Virus record (IMG/VR): IMGVR_UViG_3300013121_000036
Location: 1 to 64,000 of that record
Reading direction: 5' to 3' (one strand)
Length of the DNA stretch: 64,000 nucleotides
DNA from: a virus
Taxonomy: Duplodnaviria; Caudoviricetes
The notes beneath the pieces were generated by a model. It ran no database searches. It was not told where the DNA came from and saw nothing but the letters and a program-made list of their open reading frames with translations. The stretch's first letter is position 1, and each line of letters begins with the position of its first letter. Shown piece by piece: positions 23,640-35,724 of the stretch. Position numbers and translations under genes: made by a program.

Positions 23640-23915
23640 ATGGAACGAAGCAATGGTGCGGACCTTGCCTCTCATGTAGACGGCATGGTCATCAGGCAGT
23701 TGTGTTTCAGCACGGCGGTCGCCGTGGCCGCTTCGATGCTCGACAAGATCGAAGAGTTGCTCTTGGCCTCGATGGACATCACAAGAGACGAGTTGACGAA
23801 GGACAGGATGTCCATGCTCATCTCTGAGATGAGGGAAGTCAAAGAGCACGCTGTCAACCTGGCCGAGATCACCAACTCAAGGGCGAAGGCAAGCCTCGCT
23901 CACGATCTCCGATGA
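23640..23915 (+). CDS. hypothetical protein
   Basis: GAGG SD; helical. Confidence 0.65.
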   Translation: MERSNGADLASHVDGMVIRQLCFSTAVAVAASMLDKIEELLLASMDITRDELTKDRMSMLISEMREVKEHAVNLAEITNSRAKASLAHDLR

Positions 23916-25339
23916 CGTTTCGGCCTCTCCCTTTCGAGGATGACTTCCAAGTCCTCGCCAGGGGGGCCAACGACCAAGAAGAGGAGAAGCGCGTCGAAGT
24001 CCCTTCTCTGTCGTACGCAGAGACGGTCGAGCTGATCAGGGCGCTCGACCTGAGATACAGGGTCAAGTCGGAGGGCGAGTCCGTCTCGTGGAAGGTCCTT
24101 CCGAGCTTCGGGAACACGTGCAAGCTGCTCAGGTCGTGGTCTCCCTTCACGAACATGCTCAGGTACAACGAGATGACGTTGTTGCCAGAGTACGCTGGCA
24201 CTCCCATCTACGAACCCATGGTTGGTTCCATCAGAGAAGGGCTTGAGGCTACCTTCTTGGTGGACTGGCCGAAGGCCGTCGTGGAAGACGCCATCAGGAC
24301 AGTCAGCGACGAGAAGAGATATCACCCCGTCAGGGAGTTCCTGACAAGCCTCCGGTGGGACGGGGAGCGTCGCGTTCACAGGGTCGCCGAAGAGATCCTT
24401 GGACTCGTTCCGCCAGACGAGGATGGCCCGTGGCTTGAGAGCGTCATGATCGAGAAGTGGTTCATCGCTACCGTGGCGAGGGCACTGGATCCTGGGTGCA
24501 AGGTCGACACGGCGCTCGTCCTTCAGGGGCCCGGCGGTCTCAAGAAGTCGCAGTTCTTCGCCGTGCTCGGCGGCAAGTGGTTCAGCGACACGCACATGAA
24601 CCTGGCGAACAAGGACTCCTATCAGCAGCTACATGCGGCCTGGATCTACGAGTGGGGAGAGATTGACAAGTACACGAGGGGTCGTGCAGGCGCGGAGTTG
24701 AAGGCGTTCCTGTCGAGCCCCGTCGACAACTTCCGAGCCCCCTACGACAGGGCGACGAAGATGCACCCACGCACCACGGTGGTGGTCGGCTCGACGAACG
24801 AGGAAGAGGTGGTCGAGGACACGACGGACGGCATGAGGCGCTACTGGATCATTCCCGTCCGCAAGCCCATCGACAAAGCCAAGCTCATCTCTTGGCGTGA
24901 CCAGCTATGGGCCGAGGCTGTCTTGCTCTACGAGCAGGCGCGTTCGACGATGGACGACAACTGGTGGTGGCTCTCCGCCAACGAGGACGACAAGAGGCGG
25001 GAGAACAACGAGAGGTACGAGGCTGTCGACGCCTGGGAGGCGCCGATCACGAGCTACCTTTCGAGCAGGCAGGTCACTCACGTGTCCGAGCTTCTTTCTG
25101 CGGCCTGCGGCCTGCACACCAAGGATCACCGAAAGCCTGAGCAGATGCGGGCCGCTTGTGTTCTCCGACGCCTTGGCTGGAAGAAGGGGTTTCGCACGAT
25201 GGTTGGCAAGGCCCGCATCGTCCCCTGGTTCAGACCTCAGGATGGTCTGGATCAGGGTCGCATGAACGACTTGCTCAGGGTCGAGTCTCGGGTCATGTTG
25301 AGCTATTTGGAGGACGAGCGTCAGCGATTTACGACCTTA
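23912..25339 (+). CDS. VapE/virulence-associated-E P-loop NTPase (replicative helicase-like); ends at TTA
   Basis: YHPVRE, PGCKVD, LQGPGGLKKS, WIYEWGE, FRAPY, GSTN, GMRRYW, RDQLWAEA. TTA at 25337 precedes a non-coding repeat region. Confidence 0.9.
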
Positions 25340-25375
25340 CCCCGACATAGCCCGACCTGGGCCCACCCCCACCCG

Positions 25376-25720
25376 AGGGGGCAAGTGTGGCAGGCGTGGC
25401 AGGTGTGGCAGAGAGCTACTGGACAAAAAGGCTCTCCTGCCAACCTGCCACACCTGCCACACCTTTTTCCAAGACCTAATAGAACCCACCACTCCAGAGA
25501 AGTCTCCAAAAAAGGTGTGGTAGGTGTGGTAGGTTGGCAGGAGAGCCAAAACGTCGAGCGGCGTGTGACACACCTACCACACCTGCCACACCCACCTCCT
25601 CATGACGCACCACCAGATCGCGAAACCGTTTCGTTTGCCGTGCTGCGTCATGACCAAAACTGTCGCTTTGTTTCGTGATTGTTTCGTGATTTGGCAGATT
25701 GTTTCGCGACCATCCTGTTC
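25376..25720. repeat. direct and inverted 9-mer repeats (GGTGTGGCA/TGCCACACC), origin-like
   Basis: Clusters in alternating orientation near 25385, 25444, 25513 and 25568; GTTTCGTGATT x2 near 25670. Confidence 0.65.
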
Positions 25721-32934: not shown

Positions 32935-33852
32935 ATGGCCGAAAACAGCAAGATTGCATGGACAACACACACGTGGAACCCGTGGATCGGCTGCACCAAG
33001 GTGTCAGCAGGGTGCAAGAACTGCTATGCGGAGGGCTTGCAGGGCAGGTTCGGAGGAGGTCTATGGGGGGCCGATGGCAGGCGCAGGATAGCTGCCCCCA
33101 GCTCGTGGAAAGAGCCCCTGTCATGGGACCGCAAGGCGAGAGATGCTGGCGAGAGGCATCGAGTCTTCTGCGCCTCTCTGGCAGATGTCTTCGAGGACAG
33201 GGCGGATCTTGCTGAGCCTAGGAAGCGCGTGTTTGGGGTCATCGAAGCGACCCCAAACCTGGACTGGCTACTGCTCACGAAGCGGCCTCAAGACATGGGA
33301 AGGCTAGCGAAGGACGCCGGATGGTCTGGGATGTGGCCCAGCAACGTGTGGGCGGGAACAACGGTAGAGGACCAGTCAGCGGCTGACTCGCGCATCCACT
33401 ATCTGCTTCGAGTGCCCGCACTCACACGCTTCCTTTCCTGCGAGCCCATGCTCAGCCCCATCCGGCTCACGTACAGGCTCGGATGCCACGCGGGCAAGGA
33501 CGGCGAATGCAACTGGCAGAACTGTCCGCAAATCCGCGACAATGAGCCCTATCGTAGTGGCAGGCACTGCCCGCTAGACTGGTCGTCGCAAGACGACTAC
33601 GAGAGCCCGCCGCGCATCGACTGGGTCATCGTGGGTGGCGAGAGCGGGCCAAATGCGCGACCGTTCGACTTGTTGCACGCAGGGTCGCTCATGCGTCAGT
33701 GCAAGCTGTCCGGCGTGCCAGTGTTCTTCAAGCAACTAGGTGCAAACCCGGTGTTTGGCGACAAGCCGTGGCCACTCGCACACGACAAGCGATCCGGCGC
33801 CGACAAGCGAGACTGGCCCGAGTGGTTGATGGTGCAGGAGTTCCCCACGTAG
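32935..33852 (+). CDS. phage Gp37/Gp68 (DUF5131) radical-SAM-like protein
   Basis: TWNPWIGCTKVSAGCKNCYA, LLTKRP, FLSCEP, WVIVGGESG, FFKQLG, EFP. Confidence 0.92.
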   Translation: MAENSKIAWTTHTWNPWIGCTKVSAGCKNCYAEGLQGRFGGGLWGADGRRRIAAPSSWKEPLSWDRKARDAGERHRVFCASLADVFEDRADLAEPRKRVFGVIEATPNLDWLLLTKRPQDMGRLAKDAGWSGMWPSNVWAGTTVEDQSAADSRIHYLLRVPALTRFLSCEPMLSPIRLTYRLGCHAGKDGECNWQNCPQIRDNEPYRSGRHCPLDWSSQDDYESPPRIDWVIVGGESGPNARPFDLLHAGSLMRQCKLSGVPVFFKQLGANPVFGDKPWPLAHDKRSGADKRDWPEWLMVQEFPT

Positions 33853-33929: not shown

Positions 33930-34229
33930 ATGGCAAAGAAGTTGGACTACTCCTCCGCGAAGAAGGCTCAGAAGGTGTCCGAGGAAGCGTCCGCCCAGAG
34001 GGCCGCAAGGGGTGTCGTCAGGTCGTTCGACGACGAGCCCAAGAGGGTCGTTCGGGTGTCGACCAAGACCGTCAACATGAGGATGTTCAACCTCAAGAGG
34101 GTGAGGATGCTCTACGTCTTCGAGCTTGAGTGCGGGCACTCAGTGAATTTCGCGAGGATGCCTCACGAGAAACACGAGTACCTGCTCTGCTCAAGGTGCC
34201 ACTCAGACTCCTTGACACCTGGCATGTGA
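33930..34229 (+). CDS. hypothetical protein with C-terminal Zn ribbon
   Basis: LECGH..CSRC. Confidence 0.6.
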   Translation: MAKKLDYSSAKKAQKVSEEASAQRAARGVVRSFDDEPKRVVRVSTKTVNMRMFNLKRVRMLYVFELECGHSVNFARMPHEKHEYLLCSRCHSDSLTPGM

Positions 34230-34242
34230 GGTCGGATACTAT
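34212..34242 (+). promoter_or_regulatory. promoter of the ORF-amber-Pth2-tRNA cassette
   Basis: TTGACA-17-GATACT, overlapping TACTAT. Confidence 0.6.
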
Positions 34243-34329
34243 GGCAGCCATGCTCTAGCTGCCAAGAGGCCCGCCCTCCTCGAACAAAGCCAGTCCCGTG
34301 AACAGAAACGCTTGTCCGTGGAGGAAGAT

Positions 34330-34698
34330 ATGAACAACCATGTTTTGTTTCGGAACATCTCGCAACTGAAGAAGCGCAGCAGGCTCCAGCACCTCATCTA
34401 CAACTGGATGATCCAGACGCCGCGAGAGAAGGTGGAGCGTAGGGTGAGCGAGCAGAGCCTTGCCTTCATCAAGGGCGAGGCACGTCGCATGAGGAACATC
34501 CTGAGCGTTGACACCGCGCCAGATGGAGCTGAGCCTGGCCACCGAACGCTGACGGCGATGGCGGTACACGAGGTCGTGGACTTCGTCGAGTGGCTCAAGC
34601 TCGACTCGTACGAGGTCAAGGTCTGTGCTCCTGGTTCGGTTGCCGAGAGGAAGCTTAGGGCTGCTGAGCGCAGGGCGGCCAAGAGCGCCGAAGCGTAG
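34330..34698 (+). CDS. hypothetical protein, N-terminal partner of the amber read-through fusion
   Basis: GGAGGAA SD; ends EA-TAG, in frame with the Pth2 domain. Confidence 0.8.
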   Translation: MNNHVLFRNISQLKKRSRLQHLIYNWMIQTPREKVERRVSEQSLAFIKGEARRMRNILSVDTAPDGAEPGHRTLTAMAVHEVVDFVEWLKLDSYEVKVCAPGSVAERKLRAAERRAAKSAEA

Positions 34699-35007
34699 GG
34701 CAAGCTCTACATCGTGGTGAGGGAAGACCTGCCGCAGGGCGCAAGGGTAGCCCAGTCGGTTCACGCCGCCGTCGAGATGGCAGTGGAGCATCCACGCGAA
34801 TTCAGGGCGTGGTGGAAAAGCTCCAACACCGTCGTGGTGTTGCTGACCAAAGACGAGGAGCGCCTCACGTCGATCTTCGACGATGCCATCGAGAAGAACA
34901 TGACGACTGTCCTCTTCAGTGAGCCAGACATGGGCAACCGGCCCACGGCGATGGCCGTCATCGACCAAGGCGCCAAGCGCTTGCTTCGCAAGCTGAAGCT
35001 GGCATAA
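34699..35007 (+). CDS. peptidyl-tRNA hydrolase 2 (Pth2)-like domain, translated by TAG read-through
   Basis: KLYIVVREDL..GARVAQSVHAA..W..VVVL..EPD...TAMA. The first Pth2 strand (KLYIVVR) begins right after TAG and upstream of the only available GTG. Confidence 0.85.
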   Translation, partial: GKLYIVVREDLPQGARVAQSVHAAVEMAVEHPREFRAWWKSSNTVVVLLTKDEERLTSIFDDAIEKNMTTVLFSEPDMGNRPTAMAVIDQGAKRLLRKLKLA

Positions 35008-35045
35008 CATCGACACATGGCCAGGTCCACTTCGGGCCTGGCTTC

Positions 35046-35118
35046 GAGGCCATAGCTCAGCAGGTAGAGCGGCGGGTTCTAAACCTGCAAGTCGCCGGTT
35101 CGAGCCCGGCTGGTCTCA
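35046..35118 (+). tRNA. amber suppressor tRNA (anticodon CUA)
   Basis: Acceptor GAGGCCA/TGGTCTC, D arm GCTC/GAGC, anticodon arm GCGGG-TTCTAAA-CCTGC (CTA at 35079-81), T arm GCCGG-TTCGAGC-CCGGC, discriminator A, no encoded CCA. Confidence 0.92.
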
Positions 35119-35133
35119 CGAAGGAGAACGAAG

Positions 35134-35724
35134 ATGGCGAAGTTTGCTTGGTTCATTGAGAGCGACGGGTACCTGAAGAAGGAGTTTGACGACATCTGGG
35201 ATACCGTAGAGGATGCCGTGAAGTTCGGAGTGGAACAAGACATCCTCAAGAAGGTCGTCGTTGGATCGGTCGAGCCGATGATCCCGTGGGACGCGATCAC
35301 CGCTGTCGACGTTGCCATGCTGAGGGAAGACGAAGGACAACTGTCTCCGCAGTCGCTCCTGGGCATGGTCTACGGGATGTTGCCACCTCTCATCAACGAG
35401 ACTTTCGTGTTCCTGAAAGGCGGGGCAGAAGCTGCCTTTCAGGAAATCATGTCACGAGGTGGCAACGACGACGACTTCCTTGCTTGGTGCAAGCAGTACA
35501 TCGAGGCCGACCCAGAGACATGCGTCTTCGGTGTTCACCCACTACCGCTTGGCTTCAGAAACGGTCACTGGTGCATGGCATCGGATGAGGACGTCTGGGT
35601 TGACGTTCACATCGAGGACGACGGCTCGTTCGGAGGTTGGGACTGGTACGCAGGGGCCCCAGCATCGTGGGGCACATGCGACAGCCTACGAGAGGCGATG
35701 AGCCTTGCCAGCGGTCGTAAATGA
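35134..35724 (+). CDS. hypothetical protein
   Basis: AAGGAG SD. Confidence 0.75.
   Translation: MAKFAWFIESDGYLKKEFDDIWDTVEDAVKFGVEQDILKKVVVGSVEPMIPWDAITAVDVAMLREDEGQLSPQSLLGMVYGMLPPLINETFVFLKGGAEAAFQEIMSRGGNDDDFLAWCKQYIEADPETCVFGVHPLPLGFRNGHWCMASDEDVWVDVHIEDDGSFGGWDWYAGAPASWGTCDSLREAMSLASGRK

What the first reader, a model, noticed from the sequence alone, without database searches (positions are those of the whole stretch)
34212..35118. Translation cassette: ORF-amber-Pth2 followed by its own amber suppressor tRNA
Seen in sequence: promoter at 34212; a 122-aa ORF ending ...KSAEA-TAG, continuing in frame as GKLYIVVREDL...AQSVHAA...EPD; a hairpin (about 35020-35042); then a canonical tRNA with CUA anticodon 38 nt after the Pth2 stop. 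Established: K-x-x-I-V-V-R-x-D-L is the first strand of the Pth2 fold, and Pth enzymes release peptides from peptidyl-tRNA. The domain has no start codon ahead of that strand, so it can only be made by read-through. Inference: the tRNA gates production of a fusion of about 225 aa, while the 122-aa form is made otherwise. This is the only translation machinery in the window and the best candidate for the UUA-termination mechanism (for example, the N-domain engages UUA-stalled ribosomes or tRNA-Leu(UAA) and Pth2 frees the chain). That link is hypothesis only.
Basis: partly seen in the sequence, partly recalled or inferred. Interest (0 to 1): 0.88.

Follow-up and report, generated by a model that had tools for sequence, protein, structure and literature searches.

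The report
Amber-gated phage Pth2 cassette with suppressor tRNA
A 111-kb phage that otherwise uses the normal genetic code puts a UAG stop directly in front of a tRNA-hydrolase-like domain and encodes its own UAG-reading tRNA 38 bases downstream, a layout shared by dozens of distant phages, so the enzyme is probably made only while that tRNA overrides the stop.

Summary
The cassette holds a promoter-like site at 34212-34240 and a 122-codon ORF (34330-34695) ending in TAG. An in-frame Pfam PTH2 domain follows (34699-35004), then a strong hairpin, then a canonical tRNA-CUA (35046-35119).

The window is the first 64 kb of a 110,758-bp phage with standard code. No other gene is amber-interrupted.

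The decisive evidence is comparative. Among 77 non-redundant phage Pth2-like loci, 49 have an in-frame stop just ahead of the first strand and no ATG/GTG/TTG after it. Of these, 45 are TAG, usually as ATG-NNN-TAG. The base after the stop is a purine in 48 of 49. Thirty-four of the 45 TAG-gated loci carry a tRNA-CUA within 8 kb. The one TAA-gated locus sits beside a tRNA-UUA. One of the three TGA-gated loci, plus a further M-E-S-TGA locus that also has later starts, sits beside a tRNA-UCA.

The read-through reading is therefore supported. Unusually, the "leader" here is a whole 122-aa orphan ORF, giving a predicted 225-aa fusion. One distant locus, L112, has a comparable long upstream ORF. A second amber (ATG-CTC-TAG) with an RGPP motif lies in an upstream mini-leader.

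The proposed link to TTA termination is not supported: 36 of 77 relatives use TTA as a sense codon inside this gene.

This scan has noted the same module in at least 85 other genomes. I found no published description.

The parts
34212..34240 (+). Sigma-70-like promoter TTGACA-17-GATACT. The predicted transcript start lies 2-4 nt before ATG 34250.
   Evidence: 10 of 12 matches; 3 sites in the region against 0.2 expected from shuffles.
34250..34333 (+). Amber-containing mini-leader. ATG 34250, CTC, TAG 34256-34258, then L-P-R-G-P-P (RGPP codons 34265-34276) and 18 more codons to TGA 34331-34333, which overlaps ATG 34330 (ATGA). The ATG and TAG sit in the loop of a GGCAGC/GCUGCC hairpin. CCUCC at 34275-34279 can pair with the SD of the next ORF.
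   Evidence: Sequence. Leader scan: ATG-(0-4 codons)-TAG...R[AG]PP found 9 times on the + strand and 0 times on the - strand of the Pth2 loci, including L112, L101, L186, L153 and L201. Fold: z -1.6, not significant.
34320..34325 (+). Shine-Dalgarno GGAGGA of the 122-aa ORF.
   Evidence: Sequence. Pairs with 34275-34279 in the minimum-energy fold.
34330..34695 (+). 122-codon orphan ORF (N-part of the predicted fusion) with an Ala/Arg/Glu-rich C-terminal helix.
   Evidence: Codon score +0.31 per codon and GC3 0.74. The variant L003 differs by an in-frame 3-nt deletion. No Pfam or PHROG match. An exhaustive search of 1.84 billion proteins found only itself.
34696..34698 (+). Gating amber codon TAG, followed by G at +4. 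It lies 8 codons before the family's invariant Arg.
34699..35007 (+). Pth2-like domain (102 aa) plus TAA stop. It has no canonical start codon ahead of strand 1.
   Evidence: Pfam PF01981 at 5.7e-10. phrog_1866 at 5.5e-18. The family profile hits solved Pth2 2zv3 at 2.9e-9. Closest cultured relatives are cluster C mycobacteriophage 'peptidyl tRNA hydrolase' genes at 46% identity.
35019..35043 (+). Stable hairpin between the Pth2 stop and the tRNA, with no U tail. Probably a processing or stabilising element rather than an intrinsic terminator.
   Evidence: -19.4 kcal/mol, z -4.86, 0 of 200 shuffles as stable; not called as a terminator.
35046..35119 (+). tRNA with anticodon CUA (amber suppressor type). 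It has U33, A37, a short variable loop, discriminator A73 and no encoded CCA.
   Evidence: ARAGORN. Rfam RF00005, 64.2 bits, E 4.7e-13. Nearest phage tRNAs by BLAST are Lys, Asn and other CUA tRNAs.
35134..35724 (+). Next ORF (196 aa, unknown function), with its SD (AAGGAG) placed directly after the tRNA. The tRNA therefore lies inside a same-strand gene array.

Best explanation
This is a phage cassette in which translation is gated by a suppressor tRNA. The phage uses the standard code but encodes a UAG-reading tRNA. It places UAG (a) as codon 3 of a near-leaderless mini-leader that then encodes an RGPP motif, and (b) directly in front of the first strand of a Pth2-like (peptidyl-tRNA-hydrolase fold) domain.

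Without the charged tRNA, ribosomes stop at both UAGs. Only a dipeptide and the 122-aa protein are then made. With it, a fraction of ribosomes reads through. The fraction is set by competition between the tRNA and release factor 1. In the leader, read-through takes ribosomes to RGPP, which lies over a CCUCC that can mask the SD of the 122-aa ORF. At the second UAG, read-through yields a 225-aa fusion carrying the Pth2-like domain. The amount of the enzyme domain thus reports and follows suppressor activity.

Shown: the parts, their order, and the conservation of the gate across the family, including its covariation with the suppressor's anticodon.

Inferred: read-through itself, the fusion product and the role of the leader. 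The enzyme's job is the least certain inference. Most likely it acts on peptidyl- or N-blocked aminoacyl-tRNA to buffer the cost of suppression or of tRNA-directed host attack. Alternatively it feeds back on the suppressor tRNA.
For: Anatomy. There is no genome-wide TAG recoding. A scan for coding-TAG-coding junctions gives only 34696 and 80694, and the latter has its own promoter-like site and an ATG 12 codons on. No other short-leader amber-gated gene was found. TGA ends 84 of 98 confident ORFs and TAG at most 9.

Family evidence. In cultured phages the Pth2-like gene reads start, 1-3 codons, TAG, then the domain with no later start: GAP32, Serratia BF, Arash, ME3, RsoM2USA, Kaldavass, pT24, XacN1 and RAS14. 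Xoo-sp13 has the same M-K-K-TAG leader but also a later ATG. A tRNA-CUA was confirmed in every one of the eight of these ten that were tested (all but Kaldavass and Xoo-sp13), and also in the uncultured LR756511, Cane17 and Phabba.

IMG/VR scans gave 77 non-redundant loci. Forty-nine are stop-gated without a later start: 45 TAG, 3 TGA and 1 TAA. Thirty-four of the 45 TAG-gated loci have tRNA-CUA within 8 kb on the same strand. L116 pairs TAA with tRNA-UUA at +332 nt. L157 (TGA-gated) and L146 (M-E-S-TGA, but with later GTG/TTG starts) each have a tRNA-UCA nearby.

The base after the gate is a purine in 48 of 49. An ATG lies exactly 2 codons before the gate in 24 of 49. An aromatic residue sits four positions before the invariant Arg in 77 of 77, and a start at GTG 34714 would remove it.

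L112 has a comparable long-ORF order: amber+RGPP leader, 164-aa ORF, TAG, Pth2-like domain, tRNA-CUA. Unlike the window it keeps an ATG after the TAG. The variant L003 keeps the whole cassette.
Against: Nothing here is experimental.

The N-ORF has no relatives and folds poorly (pLDDT 40), so the fusion has no precedent of the same sequence. Gene callers split the locus into 121/122-aa and 97-aa genes.

L103 and L131 (TGA-gated, complete genomes) have no tRNA-UCA that I could find. Eleven of the 45 TAG-gated loci show no tRNA-CUA within 8 kb; many of these are fragments. Seventeen relatives have an ordinary start, several still next to a tRNA-CUA, so gating is not obligatory for the family.

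The canonical Pth2 'GK' lysine is absent, and the catalytic Asp position holds Glu, so the substrate is uncertain. The leader's SD-masking fold is not statistically distinguishable from shuffles (z -1.6).
Confidence: 0.62

Rival explanations
1. Two ordinary genes. The 122-aa ORF simply ends at TAG, and a 97-aa Pth2 is made from GTG 34714 by termination-reinitiation. The tRNA is a neighbour only because translation genes cluster.
For: GTG lies 15 nt after the stop, within reinitiation range. Automatic gene calls do exactly this (97-aa product). Pth2-like genes sit among tRNA genes in cluster C mycobacteriophages, where they have a start of their own.
Against: A start at 34714 deletes K-L-Y-I of strand 1, including the aromatic residue kept in 77 of 77 relatives. 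None of the 77 begins that late. There is no SD ahead of the GTG. Forty-nine relatives have no start at all after the stop, and the stop type tracks the neighbouring suppressor's anticodon.
Confidence: 0.13
2. The tRNA's main task lies elsewhere, such as extending host proteins that end in UAG during takeover, or replacing or decoying a host tRNA attacked by a defence system. The two UAGs are only sensors that switch on an accessory enzyme. This is compatible with gating but reverses which part is the 'client'.
For: The phage itself rarely uses TAG as a stop (at most 9 of 98 ORFs), so a suppressor would hit the host harder than the phage. Eleven of 17 relatives with an ordinary start still keep a suppressor tRNA within 8 kb of the gene, CUA in nine of them. 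The authors of the XacN1 paper could find no read-through targets for its two CUA tRNAs (PMC5852040).
Against: No host is known for this phage and no effect on a host was tested. The tight and conserved pairing of gate and tRNA argues that the Pth2-like gene is at least one true client.
Confidence: 0.15
3. Decaying gene. The Pth2 gene lost its start by deletion and is a remnant, and the TAG is just the stop of the upstream gene.
For: Compared with Cane17 (TAG-GTG-ACA-AAC-CCT-CAG-AGC-CCC-GGC-AAG) and L112 (TAG-GGC-...-ATG-...-AAG), the window reads TAG-GGC-AAG, as if the start-bearing codons had been deleted.
Against: The 102-codon frame is intact, with the best codon score in the region (+0.43). 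All family-invariant residues are kept: R8, D10, Q19, H22, E75-P76-D77 and T83. The independent variant L003 has one substitution and no frame damage. Lack of a start is the family norm.
Confidence: 0.05
4. The N-domain takes the Pth2 domain to ribosomes stalled at UUA, so that UUA works as a gene end in this phage.
For: In this genome, TTA after confident coding sequence is followed by non-coding sequence in 9 of 13 cases. The figure is 14% for other sense codons and 90% for TGA. Junctions such as TTAcgATG (2272), TTAccATG (69236) and TTA-SD-ATG (39763, 103731) are seen. The N-domain is unique to this phage.
Against: The module is common in phages that use TTA as Leu, including inside this gene (36 of 77). 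Nothing in the N-domain suggests binding to ribosomes or tRNA-Leu. Pth enzymes act on peptidyl-tRNA that has left the ribosome (established knowledge), not on ribosome-bound chains.
Confidence: 0.04
5. TAG is a sense codon throughout this phage (code-15-like recoding).
For: A phage-encoded tRNA-CUA is the hallmark of such phages.
Against: Only one coding-TAG-coding junction lacks a start of its own in the whole 110.7-kb genome. TAG ends real genes such as the DUF5131 gene at 33850.
Confidence: 0.02

Closest known systems
Stop-codon recoding in phages with their own suppressor tRNAs (TAG read as Gln, 'code 15': crAss-like, Lak and other gut phages)
   Same: A phage-encoded tRNA-CUA overrides UAG in phage genes while the host keeps the standard code. 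It is thought to time gene expression.
   Different: There, in-frame TAGs pervade many (late) genes. Here the genome uses the standard code, and only two sites in one small cassette carry the UAG.
prfB (release factor 2) autoregulation through an early in-frame UGA
   Same: An early in-frame stop codon acts as a sensor of how well that stop is being decoded, and so sets the output of a translation factor.
   Different: prfB needs a +1 frameshift and senses a release factor. Here the frame is unchanged and the sensed molecule would be a suppressor tRNA.
Programmed read-through giving two products (Qbeta A1 coat extension; retroviral gag-pol UAG)
   Same: One ORF yields a short major product and a C-terminally extended minor product by stop-codon read-through.
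   Different: Those cases rely on host near-cognate tRNAs and on RNA context. Here a dedicated cognate suppressor tRNA is encoded 38 nt downstream.
Archaeal/eukaryotic Pth2 (PF01981; solved 2zv3, 1rlk, 1q7s) and the 'peptidyl tRNA hydrolase' of cluster C mycobacteriophages (Bxz1 gp154, Cane17 gp148)
   Same: Same fold family by profile. 46% identity to Cane17 gp148. In Cane17 and Phabba a tRNA-CUA also follows the gene within 130-250 nt, and a TAG immediately precedes the start.
   Different: The phage subfamily has E-P-D where Pth2 has D-A-G, and it lacks the GK lysine. The cluster C genes have a GTG start after the TAG, and the window has none.
RAPP/RGPP ribosome-arrest leader peptides (ApdA, ApdP; SecM-type regulation)
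   Same: A short upstream ORF encodes R-G-P-P just before a sequence that can pair with the SD of the next gene.
   Different: Here the motif is reached only after an amber codon at position 3. Arrest was not shown, and the masking fold is not significant.

Membership tests
PTH2 (PF01981) peptidyl-tRNA hydrolase fold | Profile match above the curated cut-off, covering the domain from strand 1 | tested here: met
   39.9 bits against a cut-off of 23, E 5.7e-10, profile 2-82 of 115. The family profile hits PDB 2zv3 at 2.9e-9.
PTH2 (PF01981) peptidyl-tRNA hydrolase fold | V-R-x-D-L strand and Q-x-x-H-A helix motif | tested here: met
   VVREDL and AQSVHAA are present. R, D, Q and H are invariant or nearly so in 16- and 43-sequence alignments.
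PTH2 (PF01981) peptidyl-tRNA hydrolase fold | Catalytic Asp of the D-A-G motif and Lys of the G-K motif (from memory of the Sulfolobus Pth2 mutational work) | tested here: inconclusive
   The invariant Glu of E-P-D aligns with the Asp, so an acidic residue is kept. The Lys position reads G-A-R here and is not conserved in the phage subfamily.
PTH2 (PF01981) peptidyl-tRNA hydrolase fold | Hydrolysis of peptidyl-tRNA | not testable with these tools
   Needs an enzyme assay.
Amber suppressor tRNA | Canonical cloverleaf with anticodon CUA, U33 and a purine at position 37 | tested here: met
   ARAGORN. Rfam tRNA, 64.2 bits against a cut-off of 29. The anticodon loop reads U-U-C-U-A-A-A.
Amber suppressor tRNA | Expressed, CCA-tailed, aminoacylated, and competes with RF1 at UAG | not testable with these tools
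   CCA is not encoded. Amino-acid identity is undetermined; the body is most like Lys/Asn-type phage tRNAs.
Genome-wide TAG recoding (code 15-like phage) | Many genes interrupted by in-frame TAG | tested here: not met
   The only junction of this kind in 110.7 kb is 34696.
Suppressor-gated phage Pth2-like module (recurrent in this scan; no paper found) | In-frame stop 8-22 codons before the invariant Arg, with no canonical start after it | tested here: met
   TAG lies 8 codons before the Arg. 49 of 77 non-redundant relatives share the state.
Suppressor-gated phage Pth2-like module (recurrent in this scan; no paper found) | Short leader, typically ATG-NNN-stop | tested here: not met
   The ORF upstream of the gate has 122 codons, and the nearest in-frame ATG is 46 codons away. 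The typical form has ATG 2 codons before the gate (24 of 49). Only L112 has a comparable long upstream ORF. The typical ATG-CTC-TAG form is present in the separate mini-leader at 34250.
Suppressor-gated phage Pth2-like module (recurrent in this scan; no paper found) | Purine after the stop, and a cognate suppressor tRNA nearby on the same strand | tested here: met
   G at +4, with tRNA-CUA 38 nt after the gene. In the family: 48 of 49 have a purine, and 34 of 45 have a CUA tRNA within 8 kb.
RAPP/RGPP arrest-peptide leaders | R-[AG]-P-P in a short upstream ORF that controls access to the next SD | tested here: inconclusive
   The motif and the CCUCC/GGAGG pairing are present. The fold has z -1.6, and arrest was not tested.

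The most novel reading that the evidence does not exclude
The cassette is a natural two-lock translational switch. A phage-encoded suppressor tRNA is the key, and UAG at the start of a stalling leader and in front of a Pth2-like domain are the locks. In this phage the second lock also converts a free 122-aa protein into a 225-aa enzyme fusion, so the ratio of tRNA to release factor 1 sets both the amount and the form of the product. Because the tRNA lies downstream on the same strand, with no terminator between, read-through may also protect its own transcription and so give positive feedback. The boldest add-on is that the orphan N-domain adapts the hydrolase to the TTA-ended genes of this genome.
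Probability: 0.4. Interest if true: 0.85.

Novelty: new variant of a known kind. Interest (0 to 1): 0.74.

Why it matters
Why phages that use the standard code carry suppressor tRNAs is an open question. The authors of the XacN1 genome paper looked for read-through targets of its two CUA tRNAs and found none (PMC5852040). In the family survey here, XacN1's ORF364 is one of the gated genes, with a leader reading M-K-TAG.

A conserved client gene, whose gating stop matches the suppressor's anticodon, makes the question testable in cultured phages such as cluster C mycobacteriophages, GAP32, ME3 and XacN1. It also shows that many database records mis-annotate or omit this gene.

If confirmed, it is a natural counterpart of the orthogonal tRNA/amber-codon gates used in synthetic biology. 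The window adds a variant in which the gate joins a whole protein to the enzyme domain.

Tried and rejected
- Word-index protein searches with the fusion and with the Pth2 part found only the window's own proteins.
- DNA-pattern scans of viral contigs with single proteins found nothing. The 16-sequence alignment was too diverse to scan with, so I split it into two sub-alignments, which worked.
- An exhaustive search with the N-ORF found only itself and two repeat-protein chance hits. The Atlas gave no usable look-alike.
- A single-sequence AlphaFold model of the fusion was useless (pLDDT 40).
- The second coding-TAG-coding junction, at genome position 80694 on the minus strand, was rejected as read-through. 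A TTGCCA...TATAAT site and an ATG follow within 12 codons.
- BLASTP of the window's N-ORF against the 164-aa ORF of L112 shows no similarity, so their likeness is architectural only.
- The suppressor tRNAs next to Pth2-like genes are only 49-68% alike and do not form one obvious lineage. The inserted amino acid could not be inferred.
- Non-canonical initiation at ATT directly after the stop was considered. It fits 18 of 49 loci (ATH codons), but not the 16 with GTH, the 7 with AAY, or the window (GGC).
Full report
WHAT IS THERE

The window is the first 64 kb of an IMG/VR virus record of 110,758 bp. The record has a 141-bp terminal repeat and 61.5% G+C. The whole genome has two tRNA genes: Asp-GTC at 528-602 on the minus strand, and a CUA tRNA at 35046-35119.

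- A promoter-like site, TTGACA-17-GATACT, at 34212-34240.
- An ORF from ATG 34330, with GGAGGA five bases upstream, to TAG 34696-34698. It encodes 122 aa.
- An in-frame continuation of 102 codons to TAA 35005-35007. It is Pfam PTH2 (E 5.7e-10, above the curated cut-off, aligned from profile position 2) and phrog_1866.
- A hairpin at 35019-35043, at -19.4 kcal/mol and z -4.9, without a U tail.
- The tRNA, 38 nt after the stop (Rfam 64 bits).

The next ORF has its SD directly after the tRNA, so the tRNA lies inside a same-strand gene array. The first in-frame canonical start after the TAG is GTG 34714, which lies inside strand 1.

A strain-level variant from an independent sample (L003) keeps the TAG, the frame and the tRNA. 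It differs in the N-ORF by an in-frame 3-nt deletion.

IS TAG A SENSE CODON IN THIS PHAGE? NO.

I trained a codon-usage score on the long ORFs and scanned both strands for TAGs with coding-like sequence of at least 50 codons on both sides. Two sites stand out: 34696 and 80694 on the minus strand. At 80694 a promoter-like site and an ATG follow within 12 codons, so those are two genes.

A second scan looked for short leaders (a start, up to 8 codons, TAG, then a coding frame without an early start). It found nothing convincing elsewhere. TGA ends 84 of 98 confident ORFs and TAG at most 9.

THE N-ORF IS AN ORPHAN

It has no Pfam or PHROG match. No relative turned up among 1.84 billion representative proteins, apart from its own near-identical copy. 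The Atlas gave no usable look-alike, and the single-sequence fold was poor. Its codon score (+0.31 per codon), its SD and the in-frame indel in L003 argue that it is translated.

THE COMPARATIVE RESULT THAT DECIDES THE READING

tblastn places the domain nearest to the "peptidyl tRNA hydrolase" of cluster C mycobacteriophages (46% identity). Further relatives are unannotated or oddly annotated stretches of many jumbo phages.

Reading those loci in the frame of the match shows the same thing again and again: a start codon, one to three codons, TAG, then the domain with no start of its own.
- GAP32: M-A-Q-TAG-NEKTW...
- Serratia BF: M-T-H-TAG
- Arash: M-L-TAG
- ME3: M-T-TAG
- RsoM2USA: M-L-TAG
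- Kaldavass: M-A-H-TAG
- pT24: M-K-TAG
- The uncultured 595-kb phage LR756511: M-T-H-TAG
- The long forms of XacN1, Xoo-sp13 and RAS14: M-K-(K)-TAG. XacN1 and Xoo-sp13 have an ATG a few codons after the TAG; in RAS14 the only candidate is a Leu codon whose spelling was not checked.

The database records truncate, split or omit these genes.

ARAGORN finds a tRNA-CUA in every one of these genomes that I tested, often within 0.5-3 kb. Kaldavass and Xoo-sp13 were searched by pattern, but their candidate loci were not run through ARAGORN. In Cane17 and Phabba a TAG immediately precedes the annotated GTG start, and a tRNA-CUA follows the gene by 250 and 130 nt.

Two profile-guided scans of IMG/VR gave 104 more loci. 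After removing near-duplicates, 77 loci including the window remain.
- 49 have an in-frame stop 8-22 codons before the invariant Arg and no ATG, GTG or TTG that would preserve strand 1. These are 45 TAG, 3 TGA and 1 TAA.
- 11 have a TAG leader plus a later start.
- 17 have an ordinary start.
- 34 of the 45 TAG-gated loci carry a tRNA-CUA within 8 kb, all on the same strand. None carries only a UCA or UUA suppressor.
- The single TAA-gated locus (L116, M-T-S-TAA) has a tRNA-UUA about 35 nt after the gene.
- Of the three TGA-gated loci, L157 has a tRNA-UCA. L146, which reads M-E-S-TGA but also has later GTG/TTG starts and so was classed as an ordinary start, has one as well. The other two TGA-gated loci (L103, L131) have none that I could find.

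Further regularities:
- The base after the gate is a purine in 48 of 49. From memory of the classical E. coli work, this is the context that favours suppression.
- An ATG lies exactly two codons before the gate in 24 of 49.
- The residue four positions before the invariant Arg is aromatic in 77 of 77. A start at GTG 34714 would delete it.

Together these results make read-through by the co-encoded suppressor the best explanation for the family, and so for the window.

WHAT IS SPECIAL HERE

The gate sits at the family's usual place (8 codons before the Arg, with G at +4). However, the frame upstream of it is a full ORF of 122 codons with its own SD, not a tripeptide. The predicted products are therefore a 122-aa protein and, by read-through, a 225-aa fusion.

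The only locus with a comparable layout is L112 (36% identity in the domain). There a 164-aa ORF with a similar Ala/Arg/Glu-rich end runs into TAG, then G-A-S-M-L-D, then the domain, and a tRNA-CUA lies about 50 nt after the stop. The two N-ORFs are not similar in sequence. L112 keeps an ATG after the TAG and the window does not. The junctions read TAG-GGC-...-AAG-CTC-TAC in L112 and TAG-GGC-AAG-CTC-TAC in the window.

A SECOND AMBER

A lead came from another first-reader note on this genome and from earlier follow-ups in this scan, so I checked the stretch between the promoter and the ORF. Two to four bases after the predicted transcript start lies ATG-CTC-TAG (34250-34258). The frame continues L-P-R-G-P-P and 18 more codons to a TGA that overlaps ATG 34330.

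The same kind of leader (ATG, 0-4 codons, TAG, then R-[AG]-P-P) occurs 9 times on the gene strand of the Pth2 loci and never on the other strand. Examples are L112 (M-R-P-F-W-TAG-LGC-RGPP-TGA), L101, L186, L153 and L201.

In the minimum-energy fold, CCUCC at 34275-34279 lies over the second Pro codon and the following Ser codon. It pairs with the SD GGAGG at 34320-34324. The fold is not better than shuffles (z -1.6), so I treat the arrest-and-unmasking idea as inference.

WHAT THE ENZYME IS

By profile it belongs to the Pth2 fold. The phage subfamily keeps R, D, Q and H, an E-P-D motif whose Glu aligns with the catalytic Asp of D-A-G, and a Thr. It lacks the G-K lysine. Its substrate is untested.

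It is established that Pth enzymes recycle peptidyl-tRNA that has left the ribosome. It is also established that bacterial Pth reverses tRNA acetylation by TacT-type toxins (PMC9241777). From this I infer a role in clearing blocked tRNAs, either those produced by suppression or those produced by host attack on tRNAs. A feedback role on the suppressor itself is an alternative.

THE TTA LINK

The module cannot be specific to TTA termination. Thirty-six of 77 relatives use TTA in frame inside this gene, six of them at a conserved Leu.

After 50 codons of confident coding sequence, the next 50 codons score as non-coding in 9 of 13 TTA cases. The figure is 14% for other sense codons, 23-28% for other rare codons and 90% for TGA. 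Junctions such as TTAcgATG and TTA-SD-ATG are seen. That belongs to another finding. Here it only keeps the link from being excluded for this one phage.

LITERATURE AND EARLIER NOTES

Full-text searches found PTH2 noted in jumbo phages (PMC7824862) and suppressor tRNAs without known targets (PMC5852040). They found no description of a stop-gated Pth2-like gene. This scan has noted the same module in at least 85 other genomes. My family survey was made independently of those notes and agrees with them.

VERDICT

The gating interpretation is supported by conservation and by stop/anticodon covariation. The fusion is plausible but unproven. The TTA link is unsupported. Everything rests on sequence, and no expression or protein data could be obtained.

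Noticed in passing
whole genome G000; e.g. window 2272, 26979, 39763, 61866; genome 69236, 103731: TTA behaves like a gene end in this genome. After 50 codons of confident coding sequence, the following 50 codons score as non-coding in 9 of 13 TTA cases. The figure is 14% for other sense codons and 90% for TGA. Junctions such as TTAcgATG, TTAccATG and TTA-SD-ATG occur, and 26979 is followed by an intergenic promoter-like stretch. No mechanism was tested.
   Followed up: partly
GenBank records behind L005-L011 and L004: Pth2-like genes are truncated, split or missing in the records of GAP32, Serratia BF, Arash, pT24, Kaldavass and RsoM2USA, because gene callers stop at the early TAG. In Phabba, the tRNA 130 nt after the Pth gene is annotated Arg(tct), but ARAGORN reads it as CUA.
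   Followed up: partly
L013, L014, L015 (Xoo-sp13, XacN1 ORF364, RAS14): These are long forms: an N-domain of about 175 aa containing an 'HDIGKP' motif (HD-like) is fused to a C-terminal Pth2-like domain. All have an M-K-(K)-TAG mini-leader in frame. XacN1 is the phage whose authors reported finding no targets for its two CUA tRNAs.
   Followed up: partly
L103:7646-7732: ARAGORN calls an odd tRNA-like gene ('tRNA-???', two-base anticodon) about 270 nt upstream of a TGA-gated Pth2-like gene, in a complete 191-kb phage in which I found no ordinary UCA suppressor.
   Followed up: no
genome 80101-81117, minus strand (outside the window): A 141-codon ORF ends in TAG, and the next gene follows in the same frame after 12 codons with its own TTGCCA...TATAAT site and ATG. 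It looks like read-through at first sight but is two genes.
   Followed up: yes
whole genome: Codon usage is unusual for 61.5% G+C. AGG is the commonest Arg codon (269 of 817 in long ORFs), and TGA ends 84 of 98 confident ORFs. Nine of ten large ORFs tested have no Pfam family; only a VapE-like domain was found, at 23912-25675. The host is unknown.
   Followed up: no
PDB entry 24bt chain A: A 127-residue 'peptidyl-tRNA hydrolase' is the second-best solved match to the phage family profile (E 2.6e-7). I could not tell what organism it comes from.
   Followed up: no
L016, L017 (RaK2, Hallingskeid): This is a paralogous subgroup with E-K-S or E-N-T in place of E-P-D. It has its own ATG (RaK2) or a long N-terminal extension without a gate (Hallingskeid). 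No tRNA-CUA was found in RaK2 by pattern search.
   Followed up: partly
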